A stretch of DNA of 56,733 nucleotides from contig JACPHR010000021.1 of NCBI GenBank assembly GCA_016188455.1, positions 1 to 56,733 of the forward strand, written 5' to 3'. The notes beneath the pieces were generated by a model that was given only the letters and a program-made list of their open reading frames with translations, did not search any database and was not told the DNA's origin. The DNA is from Candidatus Tayloriibacteriota bacterium (GTDB lineage: Bacteria; Patescibacteriota; Minisyncoccia; Phycocordibacterales; SIBU01). This document shows, in pieces, positions 39,487 to 56,072 of the stretch. Made by a program: the position numbers and the translations under genes. Positions within the stretch are counted from its first letter, which is position 1; each line of letters starts with the position of its first letter.

Positions 39487-39825
39487 CTATTTTGCTCTAG
39501 TTCCGGGCGGCACATATACTGACGGTTCAAGGAGCGAAAATCCGCCGTCATCCGTTGAGACGGCCAAAAGCATGCCGTTACTTTCATGGCCTTTGATAAC
39601 TCGCGGCTCCAGGTTGGCGACGAACAGGCACCGCTTGCCCACCAAGGCCGTCGGCTCGGGGAAATAAAGCGCGATGCCGGAGATAACCTGCCGCGGTTTT
39701 TCTTCTCCGAGATTAACCCTGAGACGCAAAAGTTTATCGGTTTCCGGCACTTTTTCAACCGAAAGAATTTGCCCGACTCGGATGTCAACTTTTTTGAAAT
39801 CCTCCAACGATATTGAAGTTGTCAT
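39487..39825 (-). CDS. tRNA-binding domain protein (CsaA/Trbp111/EMAPII-like OB fold)
   Basis: F.KVDIRVGQILSVEKVPETDKLLRLRVNLGEE.PRQVISGIA..Y.PE.LVGKR.LFVANL.PR...G..S.GMLLA is the typical pattern. Confidence 0.8.
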   Translation of the reverse strand: MTTSISLEDFKKVDIRVGQILSVEKVPETDKLLRLRVNLGEEKPRQVISGIALYFPEPTALVGKRCLFVANLEPRVIKGHESNGMLLAVSTDDGGFSLLEPSVYVPPGTRAK

Positions 39826-40202
39826 TTTTTCTTTTCTAAAAAACTTTTCAGGATAAGCGCCGCCGCGGAGGCGTCATGCATCGCGGTTTTGCCTTGAAGG
39901 CGCTTCGCTTCCGCGCTGGTCATAAACTCGGGCTCAAAAAAAACCGGCAAACCGACCGCGCTCTCCAACGCACTCTTAAACCGCCGTACGGCTTCCATAA
40001 TAACATTGTCTTGGCCTTTGAAATTTTTGGACTCGCCCAAAACGACCGCGCCGATTTTTTTATTGTTAACAATTTTTTTAATATCCGCCAGAACTTTTTT
40101 ATCGTTCGGCAAAACCAAAAGAGGCAGGGCGAACCGCCCCTCCTCGTCTGAAACTGCTACGCCCACCCGCTTTGTGCCGTAATCAATACCGAGGTAACGC
40201 AT
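39822..40202 (-). CDS. ruvX: Holliday junction resolvase-like pre-16S rRNA nuclease RuvX/YqgF
   Basis: MRYLGIDYGTKRVGVAVSDE... and ..VVLGESK..G.. are YqgF motifs. Confidence 0.85.
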   Translation of the reverse strand: MRYLGIDYGTKRVGVAVSDEEGRFALPLLVLPNDKKVLADIKKIVNNKKIGAVVLGESKNFKGQDNVIMEAVRRFKSALESAVGLPVFFEPEFMTSAEAKRLQGKTAMHDASAAALILKSFLEKKK

Positions 40203-40422
40203 ACCAAGACATTATACATGGTAGGCAAAACTTACCCCAGCACCAAAAGTCATACGGGCTCGCGCTTCGCCCGGCAAGGGATGTGGCTATTCGCCACCCG
40301 CGCTCACCCTGGTATTGGTGCGGGGTTATTATCCACAAACCACATAACACCGCCGAAGCGGCGGATTCTGTGGGCGGATAATAAATTGCAAATAGGGTTT
40401 TTTTTGCTATCATGCAAATCAT

Positions 40423-40507
40423 GGAAGGGTCGGATAATGGTATTCCACCGGTCTTGAAAACCGGCGCCGGCAACGGCTTGCGAGTTCGAGTCTCGCCCCT
40501 TCCGCCA
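40423..40507 (+). tRNA. tRNA-Ser (anticodon TGA), long variable arm, CCA encoded
   Basis: Hand fold: GGAAGGG TC GGAT AATGGTA TTCC A CCGGT CTTGAAA ACCGG (variable arm CGCCGGCAACGGCTT) GCGAG TTCGAGT CTCGC CCCTTCC G CCA. Confidence 0.85.
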
Positions 40508-40657
40508 TGAACCGAGAGGACTGCTAAACGCAGTCCGAGCGGCTCATCATTAGCGTGATAGAGGCGAGACTCGAACGGCAGAGCAAAATTTTCAGCAGAA
40601 AATTTTGGGAGCCGGTGCCCAGACCAATTTTTGCGGCGGCAAAAATTTAGTCGCGGG

Positions 40658-40679
40658 CGAGTCTCGCCCCTTCCGCCAT
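40658..40679 (+). repeat. 22-nt direct repeat of the tRNA-Ser 3' end (att-like)
   Basis: CGAGTCTCGCCCCTTCCGCCAT is identical to 40487-40508. The intervening 150 nt contains an inverted T-arm copy (GGCGAGACTCGAAC, about 40563-40576). Confidence 0.8.
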
Positions 40680-40723
40680 TAAATATTTAGTATCGTATAG
40701 ACCCGAGTGCTATAATTAAAAAT

Positions 40724-42151
40724 ATGGCGATAATTTATTTGGTACAATCCACTCTTGATAAAACAAAAATCTACATCGGAAAAACCGATAGATCTTTGGC
40801 GGAAAGAAGAAAAGAACATGAGGATAAAGCAGCTAATCATAGTTCTACTAAGTTTCATTGCGAATTATTAAGGAAAGGGCTTGATAATTGGGAGTGGCGG
40901 ATACTTGAAACTCTCGATCCTGCTGCAAATGTTTTTGAAAGAGAAAAATATTGGATGCAAAAATTTGATGCACTTCCAATTGATCTATTAAATACAGCAT
41001 CAACAAATAGCAACACTGAAACGAAGCGTAAAAAAGCAGATACTCTCGCTCGTGCTGTTGGAGGTAAGAATGTTTGGAAAAGCGCCAGTGCCAAGAAATG
41101 GATGATATTGTCTGGAAAATTGAAACCGCTAGAGAATACTGAAACAAAGATTAAGTATGAAGGATTGCTTGATGCTGAGCGAAAAACTGGAGAAACAAGG
41201 GGTGCGATCAAAAAATCCTGTGATACAGGAATACCAACTTCTCGTGGCAAGCTTTATGCGTGGTTAGATATCAAGGGAAATCTAAAACTAACCGAAAACC
41301 ATATTAAGAAAGTTCCTAGGTTAAAGAGAGTTAAAAACAAAACCACGGGAGAAATTTATAATTCATTAGCAGATGCTGCCAAAAACATCGGCGTATCAAT
41401 GAACATAATTAGAGACGCATGTAATGGTAAATACAAAACTACAAAAGGTCAGATAGTTTGTTTTTTGGATGACAATGGGAACGAAGTATTAACCGAAACT
41501 CACAAAAATACCTTACTTCGGTTAGAAGAAAAAAAGAAAATTGGATTTGTGGCTTGGCGTATAGAAGATAAAAATCGCAGTAAACCTTATATATTTGACT
41601 CAATTCTTGAATTGATAAACTCAATAAAAAGGGACTCTGGCGAGGAGCTTTCTCGGAGTCATATCCTTGATATTTGCAAGGGTAAAAGACAGCACGACCA
41701 AGGTTGGAGAGTAGCATACTACGACAAAGAAAAGAAAGAACCTATTTTCAGAAACAAGCATCTACTACCAATTAGGGAAAAAATTCGTGGGGTAATCTGT
41801 TTAAATGATAATAAAGTTTTTTCAAATGCAACTGAGGCTGGCAAATTTTACAATTTAGAAAGTGGCCAAATACTGCTTTGTTGCGCCCGGAAATTAAAAA
41901 GTACAGGGAGAAATTTAAAAACAAAATACAAGTTTGCACACACCGACAAAGAAGGAAAACCGATCTTAACCCCATTACACAGTGAATCAGATTCCTGGCT
42001 CGGCAAGAAAATATTTTGCCCCGGGTTGGGAAAAGAATTTAGATCTGTGGCAGAATTTTGCAGAGAAACAAATATCCCAGCGAAACGTGTAAGTAAATAC
42101 CTAAAAGGGAAAAATATTGATCTTGGTGGCCTAACACTTGTTCAGGTGTAA
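40724..42151 (+). CDS. GIY-YIG homing-endonuclease-like protein with about five NUMOD1/HTH-like DNA-binding repeats
   Basis: The N-terminus has IIYLV..(11)..IYIGKT, R..EH and E.EKYWM (GIY-YIG). Repeated ~35-aa modules follow (..F.S...A.K..G.S...I...C.GK..). The gene is markedly AT-rich relative to its surroundings. Confidence 0.7.
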   Translation: MAIIYLVQSTLDKTKIYIGKTDRSLAERRKEHEDKAANHSSTKFHCELLRKGLDNWEWRILETLDPAANVFEREKYWMQKFDALPIDLLNTASTNSNTETKRKKADTLARAVGGKNVWKSASAKKWMILSGKLKPLENTETKIKYEGLLDAERKTGETRGAIKKSCDTGIPTSRGKLYAWLDIKGNLKLTENHIKKVPRLKRVKNKTTGEIYNSLADAAKNIGVSMNIIRDACNGKYKTTKGQIVCFLDDNGNEVLTETHKNTLLRLEEKKKIGFVAWRIEDKNRSKPYIFDSILELINSIKRDSGEELSRSHILDICKGKRQHDQGWRVAYYDKEKKEPIFRNKHLLPIREKIRGVICLNDNKVFSNATEAGKFYNLESGQILLCCARKLKSTGRNLKTKYKFAHTDKEGKPILTPLHSESDSWLGKKIFCPGLGKEFRSVAEFCRETNIPAKRVSKYLKGKNIDLGGLTLVQV

Positions 42152-42320
42152 TTTAGTCGAGCCTACTCTTTATATTATAGTCAATGATATCTCTTTCTTT
42201 GTTTAATTTTGGTTTCGGTACCTCAAATCACTCCGGATGCTCTTTGTAGGTGACTCTTAATTTCCGTATACTATTGTCAATATCCCCGAATTTAAGAAGG
42301 GGATTTGATAAAATAAATTT

Positions 42321-42566
42321 ATGCACAAAGTGCCGGCGGATTTACGAAAAGTCCTTGCCTCTTCCAAAGCGGCGAGAGCCGCATGGGAGGATAGTACGCC
42401 ACTTGCGCGCAATGAGTGGCTCTGCTGGATTCTGTCCGCGAAGTATGCAAAGACGCGAAGCCGCCGGACCGAAAGGACGCAGAAGGAACTTATAGACGGA
42501 AAACGCAGGCCTTGTTGCTTCGCAGGTTGTATTCATCGCTCCAAATATGTTGAAAACAGCAAATAA
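42321..42566 (+). CDS. YdeI/OmpD-associated family protein
   Basis: VPADLRKVLASSKAARAAWEDSTPLARNEWLCWILSAKYAKTRSRR.E......L..GKRRPCCF is the typical pattern of this small family. Confidence 0.65.
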   Translation: MHKVPADLRKVLASSKAARAAWEDSTPLARNEWLCWILSAKYAKTRSRRTERTQKELIDGKRRPCCFAGCIHRSKYVENSK

Positions 42567-42581
42567 TATCACACAACATTT

Positions 42582-42890
42582 ATGAAGCCGCGAATTTCAG
42601 TGTTAACAATCGGCGTGAACGACCTGAAAAAGTCGCTTAGATTTTATCGTGACGGACTTGGGTTGAAAACAGAAGGTATTGTCGGAGAGGAATACGAGTA
42701 CGGAGCAGTGGTATTTTTTGATTTGCAACACAGCATAAAGCTGGCGCTTTATCCGAGAAAAAACCTCGCCCGCGATGTGGGCATTAAAGAAACCCTCGCA
42801 AGCGCAACAGAATTGAGCATCGGACATAATGTGAATAGCAAAAAAGAAGTTGACGCCGTGATGGCGCGAGCAAAAAAAGCCGGCGCTCAA
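42582..42890 (+). pseudogene. VOC (glyoxalase/bleomycin-resistance) family gene, 3'-truncated
   Basis: The first ~103 aa (ISVLTIGVNDLKKSLRFYRDGLGL.., ..VFFDL.., ..SIGHNV.SKKEVDAVMARAKKAGAQ) fit a VOC fold. After about 42890 the ORF continues to 43127 as unrelated sequence that overlaps a minus-strand ORF. Confidence 0.5.
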
Positions 42891-42978
42891 GCACGAGTAC
42901 CGGCAACAGGTTTGCCTATCTTCCCTCCTCTTAATCTGTCAAAAGAGTGGTGCATGAAACGTCGTCGTGACGGCAGCT

Positions 42979-43206
42979 CTACTCGGTGCCAAAATGCTTC
43001 TCTTGCAAGACTCGCACTTCGTCAGAGCTCAAACCCTCCAGAACCGCCAACCGTCCGGAAGTGTCTTCATAGAGCATTCCCGATCCAGAGGGTAACGCGC
43101 CAAGCGCTCGTTGTGCGCTTGCTCTGATCGCGTCACCAGTGTCTTTATTCTGAATCGTGATACCCTCGCCAAAGTCTGGATGCCATACTGAGATACTGGG
43201 ATTCAT
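42979..43206 (-). CDS. hypothetical protein
   Basis: 75-aa ORF with no family recognised. It lies in a decayed region. Confidence 0.25.
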   Translation of the reverse strand: MNPSISVWHPDFGEGITIQNKDTGDAIRASAQRALGALPSGSGMLYEDTSGRLAVLEGLSSDEVRVLQEKHFGTE

Positions 43207-43300
43207 TGCTTATCCTTTCTTTTTGAACCTTTGAACCAGAATCAGCTTAACAATTATAACCCGCTTGTCAATATTTACTTACTACCTGCAAGAAGGTATA

Positions 43301-43675
43301 ATGTCTTCAGAAAAAGAGAGAAAGGTTAAAAGTATGTGCATCTCATATATACCCCCAAAGTTAGGCTTACTTGACAGACCGCTCCCAACTCATGAACCTT
43401 TGACAAGAGATACCATCCCCAGACTCCGATTCCCCGATGCGTTTGCAAAATTCCGGGATCATCTTGGACTTTTGCATTTGCCATCACCGCGGAGGCTGGA
43501 AGATGACAATCTCCGATGGGCTGTTGCTGAAATGCAACTTGAGAGAAAACGGGAAAGAGAAAAGGAGGAAGCGAGAAGACGCGAGAGTCTAGACGCATTC
43601 CTAAACCTAAACAAACAAGCAGCGAAAGACTTCGATGTACGAATAGCTGAATACCTCATTCTCAAAAAGAAATGA
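43301..43675 (+). CDS. hypothetical protein
   Basis: ATG 43301 is preceded by AGAAGG 4 nt upstream. It encodes 124 aa, and a strong terminator follows at 43701-43729. Confidence 0.45.
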   Translation: MSSEKERKVKSMCISYIPPKLGLLDRPLPTHEPLTRDTIPRLRFPDAFAKFRDHLGLLHLPSPRRLEDDNLRWAVAEMQLERKREREKEEARRRESLDAFLNLNKQAAKDFDVRIAEYLILKKK

Positions 43676-43700
43676 TGGTGAAACGAAGGTGGGTCAGACA

Positions 43701-43729
43701 CAAAAGAGACTGTTTTCAGTCTCTTTTTT
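43701..43729 (+). terminator. rho-independent terminator
   Basis: AAAAGAGACTGTTTTCAGTCTCTTTTTTT. Confidence 0.75.
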
Positions 43730-43846
43730 TAATCCGAGAAGACCAATCCTGCTATATCGTGTCTTAGCATGAAAAGGCCGATGTATTAGTGCGTGAACTG
43801 TTGCACTGTCGTCTCTTTTTCACCGCATAGGTCATAGAATGAACAA

Positions 43847-43885
43847 CCACGCCACCTGCCTGCCTACGGCAGGCAGGTGGCGTGG
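43847..43885. other. GC-rich 18-bp-stem perfect palindrome
   Basis: CCACGCCACCTGCCTGCCTACGGCAGGCAGGTGGCGTGG. Confidence 0.5.
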
Positions 43886-44457
43886 TGCTCTGCGGGCGGC
43901 ACTATTGTTCTCATCATGCTCGCTGTCTTCCTCGCTGTTTTTGCACTGTCCGCCGTCGAAGGCACAGAGTTTAGAGTTACCACTAAACGCGGATATGGGT
44001 GCGCCTCGGTCGCCGTGAGGACGGAGAAAAGAGCAATCAAAAATGATAAACTAATAGTGCTCTTTTCGGAGACTGAAACGGCGAAGCAAAACCAAAAATT
44101 TCCCTTCCATTTCTTTTTCCGCTTCGCGGCGGAGGAATCCGCGCGGGCGAGTCCGTCGCCCCGCCTCCTTCTCCTTACAGGAGCAGTACACCTTTTGGAT
44201 ATTTTGTTTCGCTTCGCTCACAAAATCTCTCAAAAGGTCTTGCGAAAGTGTCCCACACTTTCTTACCCCAGAAAAATAGTGGCGGGGCGCATCATTTCAG
44301 ATTTCGCTCTTTGCCCTTCCGTAGCTTTATGCGAAGGAGGGTTTTGGATTTGTGTATCAGATTTGGTAAAATAATTTCAAGAGTTTGCGAGGGTTTTAAT
44401 TCGGGAGCAATCGTGGACGAACAAACTCCGTTCGAGCCATCTTTAAGATACGCCGCA

Positions 44458-44925
44458 ATGAAAATTTCTGTTAAAGCCATAATCTTTGACTGGGGCAGAA
44501 CACTTTTTGATTCGGAAACCAAAAAAGAATTTTCGGAAGCGGAGAAAATATTGGCGTTGTGCAAAGGCCGAGGGTATCGGCTTGCTGTCGGTTCGCTCAC
44601 AAGTATTCATTCAAACGCGACTCTGGAGGAAAGAAAAAAACAAATAGAAGACTTCCCACTCCGAAAATATTTTGAAATTGTTGCCGTGACAGACACCGAC
44701 AAAGACAAAAGTTTTGATGAAATTGTCCAAAAGTTTAATCTGCCGAGGGAGGAAATTTTAATTGTTGACGATAGAACGGTCCGAGGCATACAGTACGGTA
44801 ATTTAAGAAATCATCCTACTGTATGGCTGCAGAAAGGAAAGTTCGCGAACGAGTTGCCAAATGAAGAAACAAAATCTCCGACATTTATTATTCACTCTCT
44901 TGAAGAATTGCTAGACATTATCTAG
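44458..44925 (+). CDS. HAD-like hydrolase
   Basis: The start is taken at MKISVKAIIFDWGRTLFD (degenerate motif I). RLAVGS.. and ILIVDDRTVRG (motif IV-like) are also present. The upstream part of ORF 44248.. looks non-coding. Confidence 0.6.
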   Translation: MKISVKAIIFDWGRTLFDSETKKEFSEAEKILALCKGRGYRLAVGSLTSIHSNATLEERKKQIEDFPLRKYFEIVAVTDTDKDKSFDEIVQKFNLPREEILIVDDRTVRGIQYGNLRNHPTVWLQKGKFANELPNEETKSPTFIIHSLEELLDII

Positions 44926-44929
44926 AGAC

Positions 44930-46024
44930 ATGAAATCTCGCTGGTTAAAAGTTAAAAAACTGCTCAAAGCGGAAAAATGTGACGCGCTTTTGGTGATAAA
45001 CGCCGAAAACAACGGACAGCCGGGGACGAGATATCTCTCGGGCTTTTCGGGGTCATCGTCGGTGTTGCTGATTACAAAAGAGAAAAAAATACTGGTGACC
45101 GACAGCCGTTACACTGTGCAGGTGCGACAGGAAGCGAAGGGATTTGAAGTAACAATTTTAAAGCCGCGCGAAACTTTTAGGGTTATTTTGAAACATCTCG
45201 CGGCAAAACTTCACCTGAAAAAAATTCTCATTGACGGCGGCATCACTTCCTACGCTTCAGTTGAGAGCCTAAAAAAAGCCGTGCCGAAAATGAAGGTGAC
45301 TTCAAAAAACGGGCTCCTTCAAGAATTGCGGATTGTTAAAGACAAGCAGGAAATCGCTCTTCTTAAAAAAGCGGCGGCTATCGCTTCACGGGCTTTCCTA
45401 AAATTTCTGCCGTCAGTCAAAGCGGGCGTGTTGGAAAAATCCCTTGCGGCACGGCTTGAAGCGATTTGCAAAGAAGAAGGCGCGGACAAAATGGCTTTTG
45501 ACACCATTGTGGCCTCGGGCGGGCGGGCCGCTCTGCCCCACGCCCGCCCTTCGGGCAAGAAACTCCGAAAAGGAGAACTGGTGGTGATTGACTGGGGTGT
45601 CCGCTACCAGGGCTATGTTTCGGATATGACCCGTACGATAGCCATCGGCAAAATTGCTCCGCGCTTGCGCGAGATTTACGAGGCGGTGCGCGGGGCGCAG
45701 GAGAGGGGATGCCAGGCGGCGCGGGCGGGGCTACCCGCCCGCGCCCTTGACGCCGCCTGCCGGGAAACTCTTAAAGAACACGGGCTTGAAAAATATTTCG
45801 CCCATGCCGCGGGCCACGGCATCGGCATGGAAATCCACGAACTGCCGGTGGTTGGACCGAAACAAAACGAGCCGCTTCCGGCGGGCGCCGTCATCACCTG
45901 CGAGCCGGGCGTTTATATCCCACGGCTTGGCGGCGCGCGGATTGAAGACAGTCTTATTATCACCAAACGCGGAGTAGTCAGTCTCACAAAAGCATTAACG
46001 AAAAAGCTTATAATTATCAACTGA
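44930..46024 (+). CDS. M24-family Xaa-Pro aminopeptidase (PepP-like)
   Basis: Creatinase-like N-domain plus pita-bread metal ligand motifs: DWGVRYQGYVSDMTRT, HAAGHGIGMEIHE, CEPGVY and RIEDS. Confidence 0.9.
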   Translation: MKSRWLKVKKLLKAEKCDALLVINAENNGQPGTRYLSGFSGSSSVLLITKEKKILVTDSRYTVQVRQEAKGFEVTILKPRETFRVILKHLAAKLHLKKILIDGGITSYASVESLKKAVPKMKVTSKNGLLQELRIVKDKQEIALLKKAAAIASRAFLKFLPSVKAGVLEKSLAARLEAICKEEGADKMAFDTIVASGGRAALPHARPSGKKLRKGELVVIDWGVRYQGYVSDMTRTIAIGKIAPRLREIYEAVRGAQERGCQAARAGLPARALDAACRETLKEHGLEKYFAHAAGHGIGMEIHELPVVGPKQNEPLPAGAVITCEPGVYIPRLGGARIEDSLIITKRGVVSLTKALTKKLIIIN

Positions 46025-46661: not shown

Positions 46662-46733
46662 GCCCTCATAGTTTAATGGATAGAATGCAAGATTGCGGAT
46701 CTTGCGATCGAGGTTCGATTCCTCGTGGGGGCA
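46662..46733 (+). tRNA. tRNA-Arg (anticodon GCG), CCA not encoded
   Basis: Hand fold: GCCCTCA TA GTTT AATGGATA GAAT G CAAGA TTGCGGA TCTTG CGAT CGAGG TTCGATT CCTCG TGGGGGC A. Confidence 0.8.
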
Positions 46734-46865
46734 CCCGACCAGAAAATGTCAAGTTCTCTCGGCATTTTCTGTGTCGCTGGAGGACCCCGAGGAATCGAAG
46801 GACGGAGCGAGCGAAGGCGAGCGAGTCGGGGTCGCGGGCGAGTACAGCAGTGCGAGACCCGTGAC

Positions 46866-46885
46866 CGATTCCTCGTGGGGGCACC
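46866..46885 (+). repeat. 20-nt direct repeat of the tRNA-Arg(GCG) 3' end
   Basis: CGATTCCTCGTGGGGGCACC is identical to 46716-46735. The 130-nt insert contains an inverted T-arm copy (CCCCGAGGAATCGAAGG, about 46786-46802). Confidence 0.8.
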
Positions 46886-55609: not shown

Positions 55610-55660
55610 CACGCCAGAAAAATCTTCACTGCTGAAGATTTTTCTGGACGTGCGCGGGAC
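55605..55660 (+). repeat. 56-nt tRNA trailer hairpin, copy 1 (after tRNA-Lys)
   Basis: GCGCACACGCCAGAAAAATCTTCACTGCTGAAGATTTTTCTGGACGTGCGCGGGAC has one mismatch to 56142-56197. It starts inside the acceptor 3' strand. Confidence 0.85.
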
Positions 55661-56072
55661 AGAGGCATGTTCGGTCAGCGGGCCGAACAGCCGAGTCCGG
55701 GTCGGGAAATTTTACTCGTGACGACGAGTAAAATATTCCTGACCACAAGACGAAAGATCTAAACTGCTTTAGATTTTTCGATAACGGTGTGAGCCGGAGC
55801 AGTGTTCGGCGTTTCGCCGAACCGCGAGGCGGAGTCGCGAGTTCCGAGACCGACGGGGCGAGGAAACTTGTGACCACAAGTGAACCTAATAAAATTGACA
55901 ATTAGTGATTCTGTTCCAACCGTGGAATATTACAGTAAAAATTATTATTTATGCCAAAATTAACTAATCAAGAAATTAAGGAGAATGGGTATTACTGGAC
56001 AATTAGCAATATGACCCCCCACCAGAAAATATGCTTATAACAATCTCTTGTTCGGCGCACCATTAAAAATAC

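What the first reader, a model, noticed from the sequence alone, without database searches (positions are those of the whole stretch)
40423..44200. tRNA-Ser 3'-end duplication followed by a low-GC island with a GIY-YIG/NUMOD endonuclease and decayed genes
The 22-nt tRNA-Ser 3' end (CGAGTCTCGCCCCTTCCGCCAT) is repeated 171 nt downstream (40658-40679). The sequence in between contains an inverted T-arm copy and three hairpins. Immediately after it comes a strongly AT-rich 1.4-kb gene for a GIY-YIG nuclease with about five NUMOD1-like DNA-binding modules (a free-standing homing endonuclease type). Next come a YdeI-like gene, a 3'-truncated VOC gene, two orphan ORFs and ~750 bp of non-coding DNA. 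A degenerate third copy of the repeat core (GCGGGCGAGTCCGTCGCCCC at about 44143-44162, versus GCGGGCGAGTCTCGCCCC at 40653-40670) could mark the distal island border, but this is weak. No integrase is present, so this is either a decayed tRNA-targeted island or a landing pad shaped by the endonuclease.
Basis: partly seen in the sequence, partly recalled or inferred. Interest (0 to 1): 0.65.

Follow-up and report, generated by a model that had tools for sequence, protein, structure and literature searches.

The report
tRNA-tail mini-element beside a stray endonuclease
The repeated tRNA-Ser tail does not mark a genomic island: it is the signature of a tiny, tightly folded, gene-less element that sits behind many tRNA genes in these ultra-small bacteria, and the neighbouring low-GC homing-endonuclease gene arrived separately.

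Summary
tRNA-Ser(UGA) lies at 40423-40507, and its last 22 nt recur exactly at 40658-40679. Between the copies lie an inverted T-arm copy and three hairpins. After them comes an intact GIY-YIG/NUMOD gene (GC 0.37; genome 0.49), then OmdA/YdeI, a truncated VOC gene and orphan ORFs.

The island reading mostly fails. The repeat brackets only about 150 nt. The same layout follows 14-17 of the genome's 45 tRNA genes: a hairpin, an antisense stretch matched to that tRNA, a conserved three-way-junction core, then a copy of that tRNA's T-loop-to-3' end. My covariance model finds the family in 249 of 301 genomes of the order. Hits lie almost always directly behind a tRNA or tmRNA, and covariation is very strong on the tRNA-sense strand. 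Rfam has no matching family, and my literature searches found nothing.

A metagenome contig carries an identical tRNA-Ser with neither the element nor the endonuclease. The endonuclease has no relative in 300 other genomes of the order and is not tRNA-linked elsewhere. The tRNA-Ser-to-pepP interval differs in every relative examined. The "third copy" at 44143 is not a recognisable element.

Most likely this is a non-autonomous integrative element that replaces the gene end and depends on housekeeping host functions. The mechanism is unproven.

The parts
39822..40202 (-). ruvX (Holliday-junction resolvase-like), conserved left anchor of the locus
   Evidence: Pfam PF03652, 1.2e-27. It is adjacent to tRNA-Ser in relatives.
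40423..40507 (+). tRNA-Ser(UGA), with CCA encoded
   Evidence: ARAGORN; Rfam tRNA, 55.7 bits. An identical 85-nt gene is present in metagenome contig L094.
40487..40508 (+). DR1: T-loop position 56 through CCA plus 1 nt. It is part of the working tRNA.
   Evidence: Exact 22-mer, two copies in the window, none in shuffles.
40509..40657 (+). Body of the tRNA-trailing structured element: hairpin 1 (40518-40536), antisense segment (40553-40576, core 40560-40576), P2 helix with hairpin 2 (40577-40613), P3 helix with hairpin 3 (40617-40658)
   Evidence: Fold -81.1 kcal/mol, z = -7.2. Model R1 scores 100.7 bits at 40513-40677. Paralogues lie after tRNA-Ser(CGA) and tRNA-Asp.
40658..40679 (+). DR2: second copy of the tRNA-Ser 3' end. 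It pairs with the antisense segment to close the three-way junction.
40724..42151 (+). Free-standing GIY-YIG / NUMOD-type homing-endonuclease gene; intact, low GC (0.366)
   Evidence: Pfam and PHROG matches. Catalytic residues are invariant in 9 homologues. No homologue in 300 other genomes of the order. GC is in the lowest 1% of windows.
42321..42566 (+). OmdA/YdeI-like small gene
   Evidence: PF13376, 4.2e-16. Homologues at 50-61% identity occur in many relatives, and in G005 one lies upstream of pepP.
42582..42911 (+). 3'-truncated VOC/glyoxalase gene fragment (the ORF reads on to 43127)
   Evidence: PF00903, 2.4e-9, covering profile positions 2-96 of 121. No homologue in 40 relatives.
42979..43206 (-). 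Orphan ORF (75 aa)
   Evidence: No Pfam or PHROG match. No homologue in relatives.
43301..43675 (+). Orphan ORF (124 aa from the ATG)
   Evidence: No Pfam or PHROG match. No homologue in relatives.
43676..44457 (.).
44458..44925 (+). Small HAD-family hydrolase gene (GC 0.39); not at this position in relatives
   Evidence: PF13419, 1.5e-5. Only 30-33% identical matches elsewhere, in G001 and G004.
44930..46024 (+). pepP-like M24 peptidase, conserved right anchor
   Evidence: PF00557, 2.6e-66. It follows tRNA-Ser in G001 and G003.
46736..46885 (+). Second member of the same element family, behind tRNA-Arg(GCG) (46662-46735)
   Evidence: 20-nt direct repeat and matched antisense segment. R1 scores 51 bits.

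Best explanation
The locus is a composite of two unrelated things.

(1) The tRNA-trailing element (shown). Positions 40509-40679 are one copy of a non-coding, strongly folded element of about 150 nt that trails tRNA genes. The family is very widespread in this order of Patescibacteria. Every copy has the same parts:
- a hairpin;
- an antisense segment written to match its own tRNA's T-loop and T-stem 3' strand, sometimes also the acceptor strand;
- a conserved three-way-junction core;
- a second copy of that tRNA's T-loop-to-3' end.
The fold is conserved by compensatory changes on the tRNA-sense strand. Copies are present or absent behind the same tRNA in close relatives.

(1, continued) How it works (inferred). 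The element is a non-autonomous integrative unit. It recombines with the tRNA gene at a fixed point in the T-loop and brings a replacement 3' end (DR1), so the tRNA stays intact. The original end is pushed downstream as DR2. In a single-stranded form, the antisense segment pairs with the carried gene end. That makes a duplex copy of the target, in the manner of CTX-phage attP or integron attC. This folded site, or plain homology with the conserved gene end, lets a housekeeping host function do the joining. New targets are probably reached through similar gene ends: the two tRNA-Ser tails share 18 of 22 nt.

(2) The endonuclease and its neighbours. Positions 40680-44929 are a hypervariable interval between tRNA-Ser and pepP. 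The GIY-YIG/NUMOD gene there is an intact, free-standing homing-type endonuclease gene acquired on its own (shown). Its cleavage target is unknown. OmdA is older in this lineage. The VOC fragment and the orphan ORFs are decaying cargo.
For: The repeat belongs to a family.
- 14 of 45 tRNA genes carry a 12-mer or longer of their own 3' end 97-183 nt downstream (16 at 10 nt or more). nhmmer adds three more loci.
- The antisense segments match their own tRNAs over 10-22 nt. For the two window copies, 0-1 of 37 other tRNAs match as well.

Conserved fold.
- RNAalifold on 9 copies gives 41 pairs, 33 of them with compensatory change.
- On 41 copies from 29 genomes, 92.7% of cells are paired, 39 of 41 pairs show double changes, and slid controls give 38-48%.
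- G.U outnumbers A.C by 81 to 20 cells, so the tRNA-sense strand is the folded one.

Distribution.
- Model R1 hits 249 of 301 genomes and 162 of 190 genera.
- 23 of the 29 best loci lie directly behind a same-strand tRNA or tmRNA.
- Copies also occur in records titled Saccharibacteria, Zambryskibacteria and Parcubacteria.

Insertion rather than a fixed feature.
- L094 has the identical tRNA-Ser and the same ruvX neighbour, but runs ..CCGCCAT|ATG straight into the next gene.
- G001 is also empty; G003 carries an element with a different core.

One repeat copy is imported.
- At a topA-like gene end the two 66-nt copies differ at about 11 synonymous sites with only one amino-acid change. The antisense segment fits DR1 (10 of 10) better than DR2.
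- Repeat length runs from a few nt to 66 nt but ends at the gene end.

No element-borne or accessory enzyme.
- The genome has a single tyrosine recombinase.
- Y1 transposase and reverse transcriptase show no association with element load.

Endonuclease is separate.
- One copy in the genome and none in 300 other genomes of the order.
- 37 full-length homologues at 35-47% identity sit in unrelated contexts without adjacent tRNAs.
- GC is in the lowest 1% and the catalytic residues are intact.
- The joints are confirmed in an independent assembly.

Variable interval.
Against:
- DR1 and DR2 are identical at tRNA-Ser, so this locus cannot by itself tell which copy came with the element.
- In one relative (L074) the repeat runs 12 nt past the tRNA end. 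That fits a local duplication as well as transfer from a near-identical strain.
- Near-universal presence and divergence among copies within a genome (76-82% identity) would also fit an RNA with a cellular function.
- How the antisense segment gets rewritten for a new tRNA is unexplained.
Confidence: 0.6

Rival explanations
1. The element is not mobile DNA in any active sense. It is a functional RNA made as the tRNA's 3' trailer. The antisense segment plus DR2 would form an acceptor/T-arm-like minihelix carrying the three-way junction. tRNA-processing enzymes (RNase P or Z, the CCA-adding enzyme) could cut it out as a tRNA-like small RNA. Alternatively it could control folding or processing of the upstream tRNA.
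For: - The elements always share strand and orientation with the tRNA.
- G.U-rich covariation lies on the sense strand.
- The family is present in 83% of genomes of the order.
- There is no link to transposases or reverse transcriptases.
- The antisense segment can extend to the acceptor strand, with the hairpin at the acceptor/T junction, as in a minihelix.
Against: - The element is present or absent behind an identical tRNA in relatives.
- The set of tRNAs that carry it differs between genomes.
- Tandem and nested copies occur.
- Copies occur at protein-gene ends, with imported and diverged gene-end duplicates.
- No Rfam family matches, even at E up to 10.
- A selfish element could also be transcribed, so the two readings are not exclusive.
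Confidence: 0.2
2. The elements spread passively. They are simply insertions flanked by their own homology arms: the whole tRNA on the left and the duplicated 3' end on the right. Natural transformation with RecA-type or homology-facilitated illegitimate recombination (Campbell-type insertion-duplication) would move them. In this reading the core has no mechanistic role.
For: - The repeats end at the conserved gene end, and the two copies at the topA-like gene differ by synonymous changes.
- Sister elements sit on two tRNA-Ser genes whose tails share 18 of 22 nt.
- No dedicated enzyme has been found.
- Earlier notes from this scan report other gene-end duplications around foreign cassettes in this genome; I did not check them.
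Against: - This does not explain the conserved fold, which has 39 of 41 covarying pairs.
- It does not explain the matched antisense segment.
- It does not explain the sharp, subfamily-specific junction inside the T-loop.
- A 20-nt right arm is very short for RecA-type exchange (general knowledge).
Confidence: 0.12
3. One reading: a decayed tRNA-targeted genomic island. Its attachment repeats would be the tRNA-Ser 3' end (40487 and 40658) and a degenerate distal copy at 44143. Alternatively, the site is a landing pad created by the GIY-YIG endonuclease.
For: - The repeat starts in the T-loop, as at classical integrase sites.
- The interval is absent from relatives.
- The 11-mer at 44143 is unlikely by chance.
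Against: - The exact repeats bracket 150 nt, not the gene block.
- The same layout recurs at 14-17 other tRNAs that have no islands.
- The 44143 site scores 6.6 bits.
- OmdA is shared with G005, while the endonuclease is unique.
- There is no integrase in the window, and only one tyrosine recombinase in the genome, on another contig.
- Homologues of the endonuclease are not tRNA-linked.
Confidence: 0.04
4. The elements are ordinary MITE-like transposons. A trans-acting transposase (for example a Y1/HUH enzyme of the RAYT or IS200/IS605 type) moves them, and the repeat is a target-site duplication.
For: - The elements are multi-copy, small, hairpin-rich and sometimes in tandem.
- The genome has three Y1_Tnp matches.
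- Y1 enzymes work on folded single-stranded DNA and read their sites by base pairing (general knowledge).
Against: - There are no constant terminal inverted repeats.
- Duplication length varies from a few nt to 66 nt and follows gene ends.
- The diverged duplicates at the topA-like gene cannot be a fresh target duplication.
- Y1_Tnp is absent from many element-rich genomes (G003, G007, G011, G027, G034, G049, G055) and present in at least 8 of 20 element-free genomes.
Confidence: 0.04

Closest known systems
Integrase-type genomic islands and prophages integrated at the T-loop sublocation of tRNA/tmRNA genes (attL/attR duplication of the tRNA 3' end; P4-like, and the sublocation scheme of Williams 2002, cited from my own knowledge)
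   Same: - The direct repeat starts inside the T-loop and runs to the gene end.
- The gene is kept intact by a carried replacement end.
- tmRNA genes are also hit.
- One copy of the repeat is foreign at the topA-like locus.
   Different: - The unit is only 110-190 nt and has no integrase or any other gene.
- There are up to 10 or more copies per 0.6-1 Mb genome, at many different tRNAs.
- It has a conserved three-way-junction fold and a target-matched antisense segment.
- The genome has only one tyrosine recombinase.
Folded single-stranded recombination sites: CTX-phage attP(+) used by host XerCD, and integron attC sites (from my own knowledge)
   Same: - A duplex recombination site would exist only when one strand folds on itself.
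- Pairing is strand-specific (G.U/G.T bias).
- The joining enzyme is supplied by the host or in trans.
- Tandem arrays occur.
   Different: - Here the folded duplex copies the target gene itself and differs for every tRNA.
- No single-stranded or circular intermediate has been shown, and no link to Xer or IntI.
- The targets are gene ends, not dif or attI.
Free-standing GIY-YIG homing endonucleases of phages (T4 Seg proteins, of which SegB acts in the tRNA gene region; I-TevI-type domain layout), from my own knowledge
   Same: - The GIY-YIG catalytic domain has all key residues, followed by NUMOD/helix-turn-helix DNA-binding modules.
- The gene is free-standing, AT-rich and next to a tRNA gene.
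   Different: - It is a cellular (Patescibacteria) gene and the protein is long (475 aa).
- The phage collection gives only a 33% identical match over 17% of the protein.
- Homologues lie in diverse bacterial chromosomes without tRNA neighbours.
- Target and activity are unknown.
REPIN-RAYT systems and other bacterial MITEs (Correia, ERIC, RPE), from my own knowledge
   Same: Small, structured, non-coding, multi-copy and persistent across a clade; often co-transcribed with neighbouring genes.
   Different: - No constant terminal repeats.
- The arms are rewritten for each target and the gene end is duplicated.
- No association with Y1 transposase.

Membership tests
GIY-YIG homing endonuclease (free-standing) | GIY-YIG catalytic domain with the conserved Tyr, Tyr, Arg, His/Glu and Asn residues | tested here: met
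   PF01541, 34.1 bits against a cut-off of 22.6. I4, Y5, Y17, G19, R28, H32, E74 and N90 are invariant across 9 homologues, including this protein.
GIY-YIG homing endonuclease (free-standing) | C-terminal modular DNA-binding region (NUMOD or helix-turn-helix modules) | tested here: met
   PF22083 scores 31.7 bits, above its cut-off. NUMOD1 scores 23.7 bits for the whole protein (cut-off 22.8), although no single stretch passes on its own. Two further modules match weakly and two are seen by pattern only.
GIY-YIG homing endonuclease (free-standing) | Selfish, horizontally moving gene: sporadic distribution and foreign composition | tested here: met
   Found in 1 of 301 genomes of the order. GC 0.366 lies in the lowest 1% of windows. 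Homologues sit 15-20 GC points below a 60-65% GC host.
GIY-YIG homing endonuclease (free-standing) | Site-specific cleavage of endonuclease-free alleles and preferential inheritance | not testable with these tools
   This needs an enzyme assay. Candidate substrates are the empty alleles in L094 and G001.
Integrase-type tRNA-targeted genomic island | Integrase gene inside the island | tested here: not met
   No recombinase domain in any island ORF. The only PF00589 match in the genome is on contig C15.
Integrase-type tRNA-targeted genomic island | Direct repeats of the tRNA 3' end bracket the whole island | tested here: not met
   The exact repeats are 171 nt apart. The distal 'copy' scores 6.6 bits, E 0.37.
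Integrase-type tRNA-targeted genomic island | Repeat begins in the T-loop or anticodon loop of the tRNA, and the gene stays intact | tested here: met
   The repeat starts at T-loop position 56, and the tRNA scores as complete.
MITE / non-autonomous transposon | Constant terminal inverted repeats and a fixed-length target-site duplication | tested here: not met
   The arms differ for each tRNA. Duplications run from a few nt to 66 nt and end at gene ends; the copies at the topA-like gene differ at synonymous sites.
MITE / non-autonomous transposon | Cognate transposase co-occurs with the elements | tested here: not met
   Only Y1_Tnp and reverse transcriptase were tested. Y1_Tnp is present in 175 of 301 genomes but absent from several element-rich ones. 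RVT_1 is present in 9 of 26 element-rich and 7 of 20 element-free genomes. Other transposase families were not tested.
Folded single-strand recombination site (CTX attP / integron attC type) | Conserved strand-specific secondary structure that recreates a duplex site | tested here: met
   The antisense:repeat helix and the three-way junction are supported by covariation. G.U outnumbers A.C by 81 to 20.
Folded single-strand recombination site (CTX attP / integron attC type) | Single-stranded or circular intermediate, and dependence on a tyrosine recombinase | not testable with these tools
One tyrosine recombinase exists in the genome, but nothing links it to the elements.
Any curated RNA family (Rfam 15) | Match to a family covariance model | tested here: not met
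   Only tRNA reaches its gathering score. With E up to 10, nothing above 17.5 bits falls on the element.

The most novel reading that the evidence does not exclude
The tRNA-Ser trailer belongs to a so far undescribed class of enzyme-less, target-programmed genetic elements. A folded single strand (DNA or RNA) of about 150 nt would use an internal antisense segment to build a duplex copy of its target. It would insert at a fixed bond of the T-loop of any tRNA, tmRNA or T-loop-like gene end, while bringing a spare gene end with it. Only universal host machinery would be needed. Alternatively, the same module is cut out by tRNA-processing enzymes as a new kind of tRNA-like small RNA found throughout Patescibacteria.
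Probability: 0.3. Interest if true: 0.9.

Novelty: new variant of a known kind. Interest (0 to 1): 0.66.

Why it matters
- The repeat would be misannotated as an island scar by standard tRNA-island finders. In these genomes it instead marks a very abundant structured element. The element is absent from Rfam, and I did not find it in the papers I searched.
- The element is in five of every six genomes of a large order of ultra-small bacteria. It keeps a covarying fold and carries a target-matched antisense segment. No enzyme of its own is evident. That makes it a candidate either for a new route of site-specific DNA insertion or for a new tRNA-linked RNA.
- The identical tRNA-Ser gene without the element (L094), and the sister copies on two tRNA-Ser genes, give concrete substrates for experiments.
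- The endonuclease part is ordinary. It shows that tRNA-flanking intervals in these reduced genomes are entry points for foreign genes.

Tried and rejected
- Island attachment-site reading. Rejected by the genome-wide tRNA scan and by the family models.
- Endonuclease as the elements' mobilising enzyme. Rejected: it has one copy, no homologue in 300 genomes that nevertheless carry elements, and homologues that are not tRNA-linked.
- Known ribozymes or RNA families. Nothing in Rfam at the gathering score or at E up to 10. By eye the junction strands lack the hammerhead core.
- C/D-box guide RNA on the opposite strand. An AUGAUGA word occurs only in the two tRNA-Ser copies, and the G.U bias puts the fold on the sense strand, so I dropped this.
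- Y1/HUH (RAYT or IS200-type) transposase as partner. No co-occurrence.
- Reverse transcriptase (retro-homing, tRNA priming). The genome has three RT genes, but RT is present in 35% of both element-rich and element-free genomes. The antisense segment also usually stops short of the CCA end.
- Phage vector. Two exact-word scans of IMG/VR returned only chance hits with no model match and no tRNA. This is a weak test.
- DGR reading of the repeat upstream of tRNA-Ser. The alignment shows a hairpin element with inverted ends, not a template/variable repeat pair.
- The genome-contig scan with a 17-mer mostly returned chance hits in GC-rich genomes. Only the Patescibacteria records contained true copies.
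- Three literature searches found nothing relevant.

Full report
**Observation**

- tRNA-Ser(UGA) is at 40423-40507.
- Its last 21 nt plus one flanking T (CGAGTCTCGCCCCTTCCGCCAT) recur exactly at 40658-40679. No shuffled sequence gives a match even with three mismatches.
- An inverted copy of the T-loop and T-stem lies at 40560-40576: 17 nt, 94% complementary.
- The 172 nt from the tRNA end to the second repeat fold at -81.1 kcal/mol (z = -7.2). The fold has one stand-alone hairpin and a long helix between the inverted copy and the second repeat. That helix encloses two further hairpins.

The next ORF (40724-42151, 475 aa) carries several matches.
- It matches a GIY-YIG domain and an I-HmuI NUMOD-like domain, both above Pfam cut-offs. 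It also matches NUMOD1 and PHROG homing-endonuclease families.
Two rest on sequence pattern alone.
- Its GC content is 0.366, against a genome mean of 0.492, in the lowest 1% of windows of that size. The other genes of the 'island' sit at 0.45-0.53, with the HAD gene at 0.39.
- OmdA/YdeI and a VOC fragment lacking the last quarter of the domain are confirmed.

**The repeat is not an island border**

The 150 nt between the two repeats occur again in the same 893-kb genome. One copy lies after tRNA-Ser(CGA) (82% identity) and a partial one after tRNA-Asp. In both places the downstream repeat copies the 3' end of the local tRNA, not of tRNA-Ser(UGA). The inverted segment also matches the local T-arm.

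A scan of all 45 tRNA genes gave these counts.
- 14 are followed, 97-183 nt downstream, by a 12-mer or longer of their own 3' end; 16 at 10 nt or more.
- nhmmer with two family alignments adds loci behind tRNA-Lys(CUU), tRNA-Arg(UCG) and tRNA-Lys(UUU).
- It also finds two copies away from tRNAs.

The antisense segments pair with their own tRNAs over 10-22 nt. For the two copies in this window, at most one of 37 other tRNAs fits as well. The window therefore holds two clear members: 40509-40679, and 46736-46885 behind tRNA-Arg(GCG). The family covariance model scores them at 100.7 and 51 bits. The shared 11-mer there is statistically unusual. It lies between fragments of other dispersed repeats, and I cannot interpret it further.

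**Anatomy and conservation of the element**

Nine copies from this genome align from the first hairpin to the second repeat. RNAalifold predicts the following:
- hairpin 1, often with an AACUGCUU loop;
- a closing helix between the antisense segment and the second repeat;
- two internal helices, P2 and P3, each capped by a hairpin;
- 33 of 41 pairs with compensatory changes.

I built a covariance model from this alignment (R1). It finds the family in 249 of 301 genomes sampled from the order, and in 162 of 190 genera.

On 41 copies from 29 genomes:
- 92.7% of cells are paired, against 38-48% when partners are slid;
- 39 of 41 pairs show double changes;
- G.U cells outnumber A.C cells by 81 to 20, so the folded strand is the tRNA-sense strand.

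Of the 29 best loci:
- 23 lie directly behind a tRNA on the same strand, one of them behind a tmRNA;
- three more have a tRNA-like 3' end that ARAGORN missed: an intron-containing tRNA, a tRNA cut by the contig end, and a probable tmRNA;
- two are at contig starts;
- one is a remnant.

True copies also occur in records titled Candidatus Saccharibacteria, Candidatus Zambryskibacteria and Parcubacteria, again behind tRNA or tmRNA genes. Rfam 15 has nothing for the element, either at gathering scores or at E up to 10. Three full-text searches found no description.

**Inserted, not constitutive**

- A metagenome contig (L094) carries a tRNA-Ser(UGA) gene identical over all 85 nt. It has the same ruvX neighbour and a similar promoter region. 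It then runs ..CCGCCAT|ATG directly into a methyltransferase gene, with no element and no endonuclease.
- In congener G001 the tRNA is followed after 19 nt by pepP.
- In congener G003 it is followed by an element with a different core but with the antisense segment and repeat matched to that genome's tRNA-Ser. pepP follows about 100 nt later.
- G013 has no element.

**Which mechanism**

Several facts argue against a simple target-site duplication.
- At a topA-like gene end (contig C20, 22344-22503) the two 66-nt copies encode the same peptide apart from one residue, yet differ at about eleven synonymous sites. One copy therefore came from another lineage. The antisense segment there fits the upstream copy (10 of 10) better than the downstream one.
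- Repeat length ranges from a few nt to 66 nt. Its 3' limit coincides with the end of the gene, as expected if similarity is kept only where donor and recipient are conserved. In one relative it runs 12 nt further, which fits transfer between near-identical strains.
- The 5' limit of the repeat is sharp and subfamily-specific inside the T-loop (53|54, 55|56 or 56|57), and it abuts the conserved 3' end of the core.

The elements behind tRNA-Ser(UGA) and tRNA-Ser(CGA) are sisters. They share even an extra segment found in no other copy. Their differences are concentrated in the antisense segment and the repeat, each matching its own tRNA. The two tRNA tails share 18 of 22 nt.

From this I infer a small integrative unit that carries a replacement gene end. 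It crosses over with the resident gene at the base of the antisense:repeat helix. It can shift to a new target through a similar gene end.

The strand-specific fold suggests that a single-stranded form presents a duplex copy of the target, as CTX-phage attP and integron attC sites do. This step is inference only.

Candidate enzymes were checked.
- The genome has one tyrosine recombinase, three reverse transcriptases and three Y1-transposase matches.
- Y1 transposase is missing from many element-rich genomes and present in at least 8 of 20 element-free ones.
- Reverse transcriptase is present in 9 of 26 element-rich and 7 of 20 element-free genomes.
- Any helper is therefore more likely a housekeeping function.
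- Two exact-word scans of viral contigs found no copies.

A functional tRNA-trailer RNA remains a serious rival and need not exclude mobility.

**The endonuclease and the rest of the interval**

- The GIY-YIG protein is single-copy and has no relative at E 1e-6 or better in 300 other genomes of the order.
- The large protein collection holds 37 full-length relatives at 35-47% identity.
- The contexts I inspected are unrelated chromosomal sites without adjacent tRNA genes. One is a 60-65% GC genome in which the gene is at 43-46% GC.
- The phage collection gives only a 33% identical match to the catalytic domain.
- All catalytic residues are invariant in an alignment of nine homologues.
- An independent Logan assembly from a public run reproduces both joints: second repeat to endonuclease, and endonuclease to OmdA. 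It carries a protein that appears to differ at two residues, so the arrangement is not an assembly artefact.

Comparison with relatives gives the following.
- OmdA has homologues at 50-61% identity in many relatives. In congener G005 it lies upstream of pepP, as it does here.
- The VOC fragment and the two orphan ORFs have no relatives among 40 genomes. The HAD gene has only distant ones elsewhere.
- Across G001, G003, G004, G005, G013 and L094 the content between tRNA-Ser and pepP is different every time.
- The 4.2 kb is thus a plastic interval. It holds one clearly foreign, probably active selfish nuclease gene, older accessory genes and decayed pieces. It is not a single island.

**Verdict**

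The island interpretation is only partly supported. The most interesting part of the finding is the 150-nt tRNA-trailing element. I file it as a new variant of gene-end-replacing integrative elements. There is about a 30% chance that it represents something categorically new: either target-programmed insertion without an enzyme of its own, or a new tRNA-like RNA.

Earlier notes of this scan on other windows reached similar descriptions. I treated them as leads and re-derived the points used here. New here are:
- the identical-tRNA empty site;
- the sister-copy comparison;
- the order-wide count;
- the strand test;
- the negative associations with Y1 transposase and reverse transcriptase;
- the separation of the endonuclease from the element.

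Noticed in passing
window 46662-46885: tRNA-Arg(GCG) is followed by a second member of the same element family. It has a 20-nt repeat of its own 3' end and a matched antisense segment (R1, 51 bits).
   Followed up: partly
window 55611-55900: Behind tRNA-Lys(UUU) lie two tandem units of a related subfamily (nhmmer E 0.0096 at 55756-55875). Their antisense segment targets the extreme 3' end of the tRNA. The same unit forms a three-copy array behind tRNA-Lys(CUU) on contig C20.
   Followed up: partly
window 40228-40345: The spacer between ruvX and the tRNA-Ser promoter holds a hairpin repeat of about 105 nt with inverted ends (CCCCAGCACCA...TGGTGCGGGG). At least 8 copies at 72-93% identity occur in the genome, one of them upstream of tRNA-Asp. 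It is absent from the empty-site contig L094.
   Followed up: partly
window 43846-43886: A perfect 19-bp GC-rich hairpin (ACCACGCCACCTGCCTGCC / GGCAGGCAGGTGGCGTGGT). A similar CCTGCCTGCC...GGCAGG insert is nested in two copies of the hairpin repeat family found at 40228-40345 (contigs C20 and C28).
   Followed up: no
window 44076-44135 and 44172-44247: Fragments of two other dispersed repeats. The first matches four places on contig C26, in inverted pairs. The second matches contigs C23 and C31.
   Followed up: no
own genome, C14:23786-23947 and C29:30866-31033: In the elements behind tRNA-Gln(CUG) and tRNA-Ala(GGC) the second repeat is split inside its T-loop by the same 14-nt insert, AAGCGTA(A/T)TCGCGG. 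This may be the footprint of a further insertion or excision at the displaced T-loop.
   Followed up: no
own genome, C20:70213-70366: A remnant locus. The 5' acceptor strand of a tRNA is joined directly to hairpin 1 of an element, which ends with the matching tRNA 3' end. Most of the tRNA has been deleted.
   Followed up: no
L074 1160-1440 (G009): A tRNA, probably Asn, has an insert of about 200 nt in its anticodon loop, so ARAGORN missed it. It is followed by two successive elements of different subfamilies, both matched to it. The first repeat runs 12 nt beyond the tRNA end.
   Followed up: no
L067, L117, L176: Copies of the element sit directly behind tmRNA genes in three different genomes.
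   Followed up: no
L048 8020-8107 (G004): In this congener tRNA-Ser(UGA) is inverted relative to ruvX and pepP. A methyltransferase-like gene fills the interval.
   Followed up: no
L089 (Logan contig of a public run) versus window 40724-42151: In the alignment the endonuclease from this assembly reads Q and G where the window's translation has R. Both positions are CGG codons in the window. The flanks I aligned are identical. I did not compare the gene's DNA directly.
   Followed up: no
own genome, C14:43932-44540, C21:4671-5279, C30:14251-14859: Three reverse-transcriptase genes (342-380 aa ORFs) in an 893-kb genome. I did not characterise them.
   Followed up: no
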